Assembly: GCF_006345805.1 (NCBI RefSeq)
Contig: NW_021837043.1
Span: 1 to 64,000 of the forward strand
From: Octopus sinensis
Taxonomy: Eukaryota
Direction: 5' to 3'
Length of the DNA: 64,000 bases
The notes under the pieces were generated by a model. It saw only the letters and a list, made by a program, of their open reading frames with translations, was not told the origin of the DNA and ran no database searches. The position numbers were made by a program, and so were the translations under genes. Below are positions 6,915 to 8,301 of the stretch, in pieces. How positions within the stretch are numbered: position 1 is the stretch's first letter; each line of letters starts with the position of its first letter.

Positions 6915-7192
6915 CAATTGCAGCGTGGAAGGTGTTTGTAAGCCATTTAAGAAACACACAAAAGCCGTTCGATTCACTTCAACATTTAAGTTTAATTTGT
7001 CAAAATATTTTCGTCGCTTTAAGACCGCGACCTGTTCACTGAGATGCAGCACGGATTTTTGTCAGTGAACAGGTCGTGTCTTAAAGCGACGAAAATATTT
7101 GACAAATTAAACTTAAAGTGAAGTGAGTGAATCGAACGGCTTTTGTGTGTTTCTTAAATGGCTTACAAACACACCTTCCACGCTGCAATTGT
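6915..7192. repeat. Inverted repeat (~127-bp arms) of a Penelope-like terminal repeat carrying hammerhead-like motifs
   Basis: 6915-7042 mirrors 7062-7192; a further copy of the family lies at ~42604-42720. The Penelope assignment is inference. Confidence 0.6.
7061..7106 (+). ncRNA. Putative minimal hammerhead ribozyme, G3-C8 core variant
   Basis: TTTGTCA-GTGAACA-G-GTCGT...GCGAC-GAAA-ATATT-TGACAAA; the mirror copy on the minus strand (~6997-7042) has the full GTCGC/GCGAC stem. Confidence 0.5.
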
Positions 7193-7613
7193 TTATATAT
7201 ATATCTTTTTTCTCTTTTTCTTTTTACTTGTTTCAGTCATTTGACTGCGGCCATGCTGGAGCACTGCCTTTTAGTCAAGCAAATCGACCCTGGGACTTAT
7301 TCTTTGTAAGCCCAGTACTTATTCTATCGGTCTCTTTTTGCTGAACTGCTAAGTGACAGGGACGAAAACACACCAGCATCGGTTGTCAAGCAATGCTAGG
7401 GAGACATACACAAAACAACACACAGACACACATATATATATACTATATACGACAGGCTTCTTTCAGTTTCCGTCTACCAAATCCACTCACAAGGCATTGG
7501 TCGGCCTGGGGCTTATAGCAGAAGACACGCCCAAGATGCCACGCAGTGGGACTGAACCCGGAACCATGTGGTTGGTTAGCAAGCTACTTACCACACAACA
7601 CTCCTGCACCTAT

Positions 7614-7662
<49 letters not shown>

Positions 7663-8301
7663 GTCTGGGGAGTGTCATTTTCTTTTTGTGCCTTATAATT
7701 TAACACACTCACCAGTAAAATTTCCACTTATTTCTTATTTTTATTTTCCTAAAATTTTCGTTGCATCATTGCAACCTTTTCAATAAGAAATAAGTGGAAA
7801 TTTTACCGATGAGTGTGTTAAATTATGAGGCACAAAAAGAAAATGACTCTCCCCAGACACAACAGAATATGCTTCAACACACGAACTCATATAAAGAATC
7901 TTGCAAACCAAATCCCAAAACGAAAAATATCTATATATCATCAGCATCAACATCATCATTGTTTAATGTCTTCCTTCACCATGCTGGCATGGGTTGGATG
8001 ATTTGACAGGAGCTTGTGCCATGCTTCTGTGTCTGTTTTGGCATGCTTTTACAGCTGGATGCCCTTCCAAATGCAACCACTTTACAGTGTGGACTGGGTG
8101 CTTTTTAAGTGACACCAGTACTTGTAGGGTCACCAAGTGACTTTGCAAGACAAAGGGTCTTTGAGAGGGGAGGTAGCTTTGGAGGAGGTGGGGTCTTGTG
8201 TCAGAAGATGAAAGATTAGAGTGTGATAGAGAGGTAGAATCAGATGTCTTGCTATAGAGGAAGTCTATGATTACCCAGCCAGAGAGCAGGAAAGAGGAGT
8301 G

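What the first reader, a model, noticed from the sequence alone, without database searches (positions are those of the whole stretch)
6997..7790. Minimal hammerhead-like motifs in several unrelated repeat families, with compensatory 3-8 core pairs
Seen: the same layout (stem I - 7-nt core - one extra purine - stem II - GAAA - short palindrome - stem I') recurs with different sequences. GUGAACA with GTCGC/GCGAC at 7061-7106 (+) and ~6997-7042 (-). UUGAAAA with GTTGC/GCAAC at ~7748-7785 (-), and a UUGAAGA sister at ~13930-13967 (+). CUGUUGA with GAGC/GCTC at 24014-24050 (+), and a CUGUGGA sister at ~62665-62700 (-). Degenerate canonical CUGAUGA-A at ~56340-56378 (-) and ~51424-51458 (-). Established: the canonical core is CUGANGA...GAAA with a C3-G8 Watson-Crick pair, and Penelope-like elements carry minimal hammerheads with palindromic stem III that act as dimers. 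Here positions 3 and 8 covary (C-G, G-C, U-A). Inference: a set of non-canonical self-cleaving RNAs in cephalopod Penelope-like or retrozyme-like repeats that canonical motif searches would miss.
Basis: partly seen in the sequence, partly recalled or inferred. Interest (0 to 1): 0.72.

Follow-up and report, generated by a model that had tools for sequence, protein, structure and literature searches.

The report
Penelope transposon hammerheads swap core pair
These motifs are short end-pieces of several Penelope-type jumping genes that carry a hammerhead-shaped, predicted self-cutting RNA; one key core base pair occurs in all four Watson-Crick forms across families of this genome, which likely reflects selection on the ribozyme fold, while the copies in this window are predicted to be inactive.

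Summary
Mostly confirmed; largely a known kind. The G3-C8 (family A), U3-A8 (B) and C3-G8 (C) motifs lie in the 3' end repeats of Penelope-like elements: A follows a GIY-YIG domain in 23 of 30 loci, B in 3 of 5, C in 4 of 30. A and B are sisters (~52% aa), not unrelated. Covariation is between families only: 8 of 8 families from a scan blind to positions 3 and 8 pair them (p≈0.0009, kinship ignored), in all four Watson-Crick forms including A3-U8. Within A, 96 of 100 position-3 mutants stay uncompensated. Family C fixes A6U while position 7 varies. Of 93 A copies, 44 begin within 4 nt of one site ~60 nt upstream of the predicted cut, often behind an extra G (likely cap-derived); 2 begin at the cut. 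Copies therefore likely come from uncut RNA. Window copies are damaged or folded into long hairpins. Minimal PLE hammerheads, U3-A8 and engineered C3G/G8C rescue are published. Natural G3-C8 and A3-U8 were not found in papers I could read; Lünse 2017 was unavailable. This scan reported the series before, also in this genome. Cleavage is untested.

The parts
6856..7042 (-). Family A PLE end: long arm with ~60-nt tail; G3-C8 motif (core 7039-7033, predicted cut 7003/7002), stem I shortened to 3 bp at the junction
   Evidence: 95% to an ORF-linked family A end; structure
7042..7194 (+). Family A PLE end: short arm starting at the AGATG start hot spot; G3-C8 motif 7058-7106 (core 7065-7071), one T missing in helix III
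   Evidence: with the other arm forms one hairpin of -212.9 kcal/mol
7653..7785 (-). Family B PLE end with U3-A8 motif (core 7783-7777), lying in the loop of the inverted insertion
7782..7933 (+). Family B inverted arm, only the part downstream of the ribozyme, plus tail
13919..14060 (+). Decayed family B end (core UUGAAGA 13933-13939; U3.G8, G12 lost)
23730..24192 (+). Family C PLE 3' end; C3-G8 core with fixed A6U (24019-24025); helix III palindrome decayed
62530..62760 (-). Second family C end (core CUGUGGA 62698-62692)
46821..47019 (-).
   Evidence: 72.5% over 211 nt to the family G end
56311..56378 (-). Old low-copy repeat with degenerate CUGAUGA motif; no link to a PLE frame shown
   Evidence: 3 relatives at 73-78%
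51424..51458 (-). CUGAUGA..GAAA string without sound stems; compatible with chance

Best explanation
The motifs are the minimal hammerhead motifs in the 3' end repeats (pLTRs) of several Penelope-like retroelement families, and their 3-8 core pair has been exchanged between families (C-G, U-A, G-C, A-U), likely because selection on the active elements keeps a slow, dimer- or protein-assisted self-cutting fold. Shown: linkage to RT/GIY-YIG frames; pairing of 3-8 across families; fixation within families; a 5'-end hot spot upstream of the motif. Inferred: transcription starts just upstream of the motif (23 nt before the core in family A), so the ribozyme forms the first ~60 nt of a capped RNA. 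Inferred: the element's RT primes in the tail downstream of the pLTR and copies the uncut RNA to its cap, then often switches template. This yields the ~200-nt direct or inverted pieces in (TA)n that fill the window. Cutting would act at another step (removing the capped leader, or trimming read-through RNA at the 3' pLTR) and is untested. The window copies are by-products, predicted inactive.
For: Family A motif lies 1.1-1.5 kb 3' of the GIY-YIG motif in 23 of 30 loci (22 G3-C8, 1 A3-U8; three loci are near-identical). [quoted passage not shown] Family B motif follows its EN in 3 of 5 loci. Family C has same-strand GIY-YIG remnants upstream in 4 of 30 loci. A, B and G form one clade (100/100; 49-57% aa) with G-C, U-A, C-G. 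A descriptor blind to 3 and 8 over 1.44 Mb gave 8 families of 3 or more loci, 8 of 8 Watson-Crick; permutation p=0.0009, and none of 14 other position pairs fell below 0.25. The A3-U8 family shows the motif in 27 of 30 loci, with a stem I pair G-C in 17, A-U in 8, A-C in 2. In family C position 7 takes all four bases (31/22/21/10 of 84) while 3 and 8 stay C (83) and G (82). 44 of 93 family A copies begin within 4 nt of AGATG, and 10 of the 12 scored as ending exactly there have a G where the template has C or T. 56 of 93 have an inverted partner. In a PLE hammerhead C3G/G8C partly rescues cleavage, cleavage needs the protein, and uncut RNA is the main template (PMC11167929).
Against: No cleavage was measured, and no genomic trace of cutting was found: 2 of 93 copies start at the predicted site, both explicable by microhomology. 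Family C fixes A6U and family G has C at position 9; a natural A6C variant has low activity (PMC3088659), so some families may be weak or dead ribozymes. Helix III self-duplexes are marginal for A and B (-0.2 and +2.2 kcal/mol) and stem I of B is 3 bp with P=0.20. Among 39 non-family hits 44% also pair 3-8 (these may include real low-copy families). Several junction Gs can be templated by the inverted arm. Family C's link rests on 4 loci. Family B shows C3.A8 in 2 and U3.G8 in 1 of 30 copies.
Confidence: 0.7

Rival explanations
1. The fold is kept as a protein-binding or packaging structure at the RNA 5' end, and cutting is negligible.
For: Copies derive from uncut RNA; hammerhead mutants do not affect insertion in vitro (PMC11167929); A6U and C9 are fixed in two families.
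Against: The 3-8 pair belongs to the catalytic arrangement and rescues cleavage when restored; position 7, the free core position, is the one that varies in family C.
Confidence: 0.17
2. Families A-C are non-coding retrozyme-like RNAs that multiply as circles by hammerhead cutting.
For: Most copies are ~200 nt without a frame; a ~127-bp tandem array of the family A motif lies on C27.
Against: Each family is tied to an RT/GIY-YIG frame; copy ends cluster upstream of the motif rather than at the cut site; inverted 5'-truncated pairs with a tail are the described PLE pattern (PMC8557442).
Confidence: 0.05
3. The 3-8 pairing across families is coincidence or an effect of how motifs were picked.
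For: Few independent changes (at least 4 by hand on the tree); several families were read by eye; loci were not a random sample.
Against: 8 of 8 in a scan blind to 3 and 8, and no other pair covaries; five of the eight families were reached through protein searches or flanks.
Confidence: 0.05
4. The window copies cut host transcripts and were kept for that.
For: Two cores in the window pass a strict descriptor.
Against: Stem II probability is 0.0000 for both family A motifs in the whole insertion; stem I of B is displaced; the copies carry decay lesions; no Pfam-matching host exon was found in the two frames tested nearest the locus (24 of 54 frames tested).
Confidence: 0.03

Closest known systems
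Minimal type I hammerheads in pLTRs of metazoan Penelope-like elements (Cervera and De la Pena 2014, PMC4209133)
   Same: Short stem I, extra base between 9 and 10.1, G10.1-C11.1, palindromic helix III, place in pLTRs, mostly solo truncated copies, opposite-strand pairs, a U3-A8 family (about 1,300 hits in Schistosoma).
   Different: G3-C8 and A3-U8 family-fixed cores and fixed A6U are not among the cores in the parts read (main text parts 1-2 of 4; supplement parts 1-2 of 3, where the listed cores begin CUGA or UUGA); no cephalopod listed there.
Poseidon of Anolis (PAc) hammerhead (Frangieh et al. 2024, PMC11167929)
   Same: PLE hammerhead; tail from internal RT start; uncut RNA is the main template; C3G/G8C partly rescues cleavage.
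   Different: There G3-C8 is engineered, here natural and fixed in more than 1,500 copies; PAc is Penelope/Poseidon clade with the ORF starting in stem II; a cap-derived G is not mentioned in the parts read (1-2 of 4).
Natural hammerhead core variants (Perreault et al. 2011, PMC3088659)
   Same: Natural U3-A8 covariation; natural A6C with low activity.
   Different: Section 8 names only U3-A8 at this pair and A6C at position 6.
Small dimeric PLE hammerhead variants (Lünse, Weinberg, Breaker, RNA Biol 14:1499)
   Same: By title (reference list): small variants tied to PLEs that cut as dimers.
   Different: Not readable here; it may already list G3-C8 or A3-U8.
Neptune-type EN+ PLEs; Hydra clade (Craig et al. 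2021, PMC8557442)
   Same: C-terminal GIY-YIG, Zn-finger linker, (TA)n targets, inverted 5'-truncated copies, tail.
   Different: Family A has a CX3CxxC linker, CCHH residues, DKS and a frame over 3 kb, so it is not Hydra; the HHR table of that paper lists only cores starting ctga.

Membership tests
Minimal PLE hammerhead (type I) | Core U4 G5 A6, A9, G12 A13 A14, A15.1-U16.1 | tested here: met
   Families A and B
Minimal PLE hammerhead (type I), family C | A at position 6 | tested here: not met
   U in 81 of 84 copies, A in 1; filed as a variant, not a plain member
Minimal PLE hammerhead (type I) | Watson-Crick pair 3-8 | tested here: met
   G-C in 77 of 80 A copies; U-A in 27 of 30 B copies; C3 in 83 and G8 in 82 of 84 C copies
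Minimal PLE hammerhead (type I) | Stems I and II, extra base after A9, G10.1-C11.1 | tested here: met
   Predicted P(stem II) 0.86-1.00 in ORF-type copies of A, B, C; P(stem I) 0.94 for A, only 0.20 and 0.32 for B and C
Minimal PLE hammerhead (type I) | Palindromic helix III and H17 | tested here: met
   AAUAUU/U17, AAUU/U17, ACGU/A17; duplex energies marginal
Minimal PLE hammerhead (type I) | Located in the end repeat of a PLE | tested here: met
Minimal PLE hammerhead (type I) | Site-specific self-cleavage as dimer or with protein | not testable with these tools
   No assay; no raw RNA reads listed
EN+ Penelope-like element | One frame with RT and C-terminal GIY-YIG | tested here: met
   Family A frame, motifs by eye, no Pfam hit itself; sisters B and G match PF01541; relatives named RT-domain. 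For C only the C-terminal part was seen
EN+ Penelope-like element | Inverted 5'-truncated copies, tail at one end, (TA)n targets | tested here: met
   56 of 93 with inverted partner; tail and (TA)n flanks
EN+ Penelope-like element | Direct pLTR upstream of a full-length frame | tested here: inconclusive
   No upstream same-strand motif found in the four long family A loci
Neptune clade | CX2-5CxxC linker and CCHH in EN | tested here: met
   By eye against passages
Neptune clade | Placement in an RT tree with reference elements | not tested
   No reference proteins were loaded; the tree holds only this genome's families
Hydra clade | No CCHH, DKT motif, CxCX5C linker, under 3 kb | tested here: not met
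Non-LTR retrozyme | Non-coding unit without RT, units bounded by the ribozyme (definition recalled; abstract start seen) | tested here: not met
   Linked to frames; ends not at the cut site

The most novel reading that the evidence does not exclude
One animal genome holds a natural compensation series of the hammerhead core: all four Watson-Crick forms of the 3-8 pair plus a family with fixed A6U, all catalytically active only with the element's own protein. The ribozyme would be a gated switch in the first ~60 nt of the capped PLE RNA that removes the cap from some molecules while uncut molecules are copied, and canonical searches would miss thousands of such motifs.
Probability: 0.35. Interest if true: 0.63.

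Novelty: new variant of a known kind. Interest (0 to 1): 0.42.

Why it matters
Why PLEs keep hammerheads is open: they cut poorly and are dispensable for insertion in vitro. At least four compensated double changes at a pair that matters for catalysis argue that selection acts on the fold. Sister families with G-C, U-A and C-G give matched natural constructs for a direct test. Descriptors fixed on CUGANGA miss these families, so hammerhead counts in animals are likely too low. The window copies themselves are ordinary transposon debris.

Tried and rejected
Rfam: no hammerhead among 150 of 202 matches shown. Family PF26215 is not in the Pfam copy. First link of family C to the G-family frame (L225) was rejected: that family has its own motif, and the C-type copy, like the A copy in L230, is a separate insertion behind (TA)n. 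Within-family covariation in A: of the first 100 of 182 position-3 mutants 96 keep C8, 2 are A3-U8, 1 U3.G8, 1 C3.A8; rejected. Hot spot of 5' ends at the predicted cut: 2 of 93; rejected for family A; B was only read by eye (30 copies) and C not tested. Splice-acceptor reading of the AGATG site: copies keep the AG and share nothing upstream but the G; disfavoured. Hydra membership rejected. Sequencing runs: no RNA holder listed; only contigs could be laid, so expression and RNA ends were not tested. Papers not held: Lünse et al., Przybilski and Hammann 2007. Literature searches; the only 'G3-C8' hit was an engineered variant (PMC3884650). Covariance models were not built; counts were made in scripts.

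Full report
Observation. A strict minimal-hammerhead descriptor finds two in the window, 7039(-) and 7783(-), against none in 40 block shuffles. Rfam shows no hammerhead among the 150 of 202 matches listed. Details differ from the finding: the + copy at 7065 has a G.U in stem II and lacks one T in helix III; the - copy at 7039 keeps 3 bp of stem I; 13933 is U3.G8 with G12 lost; family C has U at position 6. The two canonical strings are near chance level (5 observed, 4.4 expected). One, 56377, has three relatives at 73-78%. The other had none in 1.24 Mb. A further canonical motif at 47019(-) was missed.

Anatomy of 6997-7790. The stretch holds two separate inverted insertions with a common unrelated repeat between them. 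Family A spans 6856-7194 and family B 7653-7933, both beside (TA)n, each with one arm longer by a tail. Each folds into one long hairpin. In that context stem II of both A motifs has probability 0.0000, and the closing pair of stem I of B has 0.0000. These copies are therefore predicted inactive.

Copy numbers. The window's genome has 2.72 Gb. Exact patterns give 1,509 and 2,768 matches for A, 1,321 for B and 226 for an upstream piece of C; all are lower bounds.

Parents. Walking upstream from A reached a GIY-YIG frame. Of 30 loci from a search with it, 23 carry the motif 1.1-1.5 kb downstream: 22 G3-C8 and 1 A3-U8, three being near-identical loci. Seven show none, one of them at a contig end. 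The longest frame, 1042 aa, has RT motifs, a CX3CxxC linker and CCHH residues by eye. It has no Pfam hit, while its sisters match GIY-YIG, and its best named relatives are RT-domain proteins of Octopus vulgaris and a sea cucumber. A sister at about 52% carries the B motif in 3 of 5 loci. A third sister, G, carries a C3-G8 motif with C at 9 in 4 of 4 loci. A, B and G form one clade, 100/100. Family C has same-strand GIY-YIG remnants upstream in 4 of 30 loci and is distant (at most about 31% over long alignments). I first took a C-type motif in L225 as the G family's own and corrected this. The features fit Neptune-type and not Hydra elements (PMC8557442: passages, section 11, supplement part 2); no reference tree was run.

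Covariation. A descriptor with no rule for positions 3 and 8, run over 1.44 Mb (416 records chosen around these families, not at random), gave 293 distinct hits. These fell into 8 families with 3 or more loci and 39 leftover hits. All 8 pair 3 with 8: G-C once, C-G three times, U-A three times, A-U once. The permutation p is 0.0009 and no other of 14 position pairs is below 0.25. The test ignores kinship; on the tree at least four double changes are needed (hand count). Of the leftovers 44% pair, which may include real low-copy families. Five more families read by eye also pair (four U-A, one C-G; three rest on one locus each). The A3-U8 family has the motif in 27 of 30 loci, with a stem I pair G-C in 17, A-U in 8 and A-C in 2. 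Within families the pair is fixed: 77 of 80 in A, 27 of 30 in B. Position-3 mutants of A are uncompensated in 96 of the first 100 of 182, as expected for decay after insertion. In family C position 7 takes all four bases while 6 is U in 81 of 84. Contigs of four runs from four coded organisms list no change of 5% or more at the seven core positions of A. This is weak support, as laying favours similar contigs and one run may be the same species.

Ends of copies. I anchored on sequence downstream of the cut site and examined 93 distinct copies from the first 100 of 2,768 places. Of these 44 begin within 4 nt of an AGATG 23 nt before the core, 34 are shorter and 15 run further upstream. Ten of the 12 scored as ending exactly at that A have a G in front where ORF-linked copies have C or T. 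Some such Gs can come from the inverted arm, but seven have unrelated flanks (by eye). Two copies begin at the predicted cut, both with microhomology. I read this as copying of capped, uncut RNA; the cap origin of the G is inference, and the lead came from an earlier scan note.

Mechanism. Shown: place in PLE ends, between-family pairing, start hot spot. Inferred: the pLTR promoter starts the RNA just before the motif; RT primes in the tail and runs to the cap; template switching gives inverted pairs. This agrees with PAc, where RT starts internally, the hammerhead cuts only with protein, mutants still insert, and C3G/G8C partly rescues (PMC11167929, parts 1-2 of 4). Cutting would then serve another step. 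Against: no trace of cutting, marginal helix III energies, and fixed A6U and C9.

Known and new. Cervera and De la Pena (PMC4209133; main text parts 1-2 of 4, supplement parts 1-2 of 3) describe the layout, the extra base, the palindrome, opposite-strand pairs and U3-A8. Perreault et al. (PMC3088659; passages and section 8) give natural U3-A8 and slow A6C. G3-C8 appears only as an engineered variant (PMC3884650, PMC8495972, passages). Nine searches found no natural G3-C8, A3-U8 or A6U family. Lünse et al., the likeliest place, and Przybilski and Hammann could not be read; of Lünse I saw only the title and a review's passages (PMC6765202). Their supplements may bear on novelty. Earlier notes of this scan report the same series in this and another genome; none lies near this window.

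Verdict. Real feature, new variant of a known kind, interest 0.42.

Noticed in passing
window 44488-44848 and 45703-46041 (+): Two exons matching the SNO/PdxT glutamine amidotransferase family (E 8.7e-21 and 8.1e-23), split by a GT..AG intron. A vitamin B6 synthesis gene is patchy in animals (recalled); the partner SNZ/PdxS was not sought.
   Followed up: partly
window 18017-18610 (-): Frame matching the PCC domain PF03479 (E 1.2e-15).
   Followed up: no
window 24637-24922 (-): GIY-YIG remnant of the G-type PLE family, 61-67% identity, frameshifted.
   Followed up: partly
G000:C27:13,557,900-13,560,800 (L017-L022): Head-to-tail array of more than 20 units of ~127 bp, each with the family A G3-C8 motif; most units have a C-C mismatch in stem I. 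A natural dimer substrate or a satellite in the making.
   Followed up: partly
L225, L226, L229, L230 (family G): Young sister family with C at core position 9 and a non-palindromic helix III, while an older relative (window 47019) has canonical A9.
   Followed up: partly
L121, L122, L132, L134, L136: PLE family whose core has C at position 4 in most copies and a U.U pair closing stem II.
   Followed up: no
L381-L410: A3-U8 family with a stem II of only 2 bp and a strong ACCGGU helix III (-8.3 kcal/mol).
   Followed up: partly
window 31604-32008 (+) and 4874-5299 (+): RT fragment (RVT_1, E 1.1e-09) and a weak HTH_32 match, likely other transposon remnants.
   Followed up: no
window 44046-44351, 33770-34393, 10903-11776: Further long inverted repeats (137-141 nt arms, 92-97%), not examined.
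   Followed up: no
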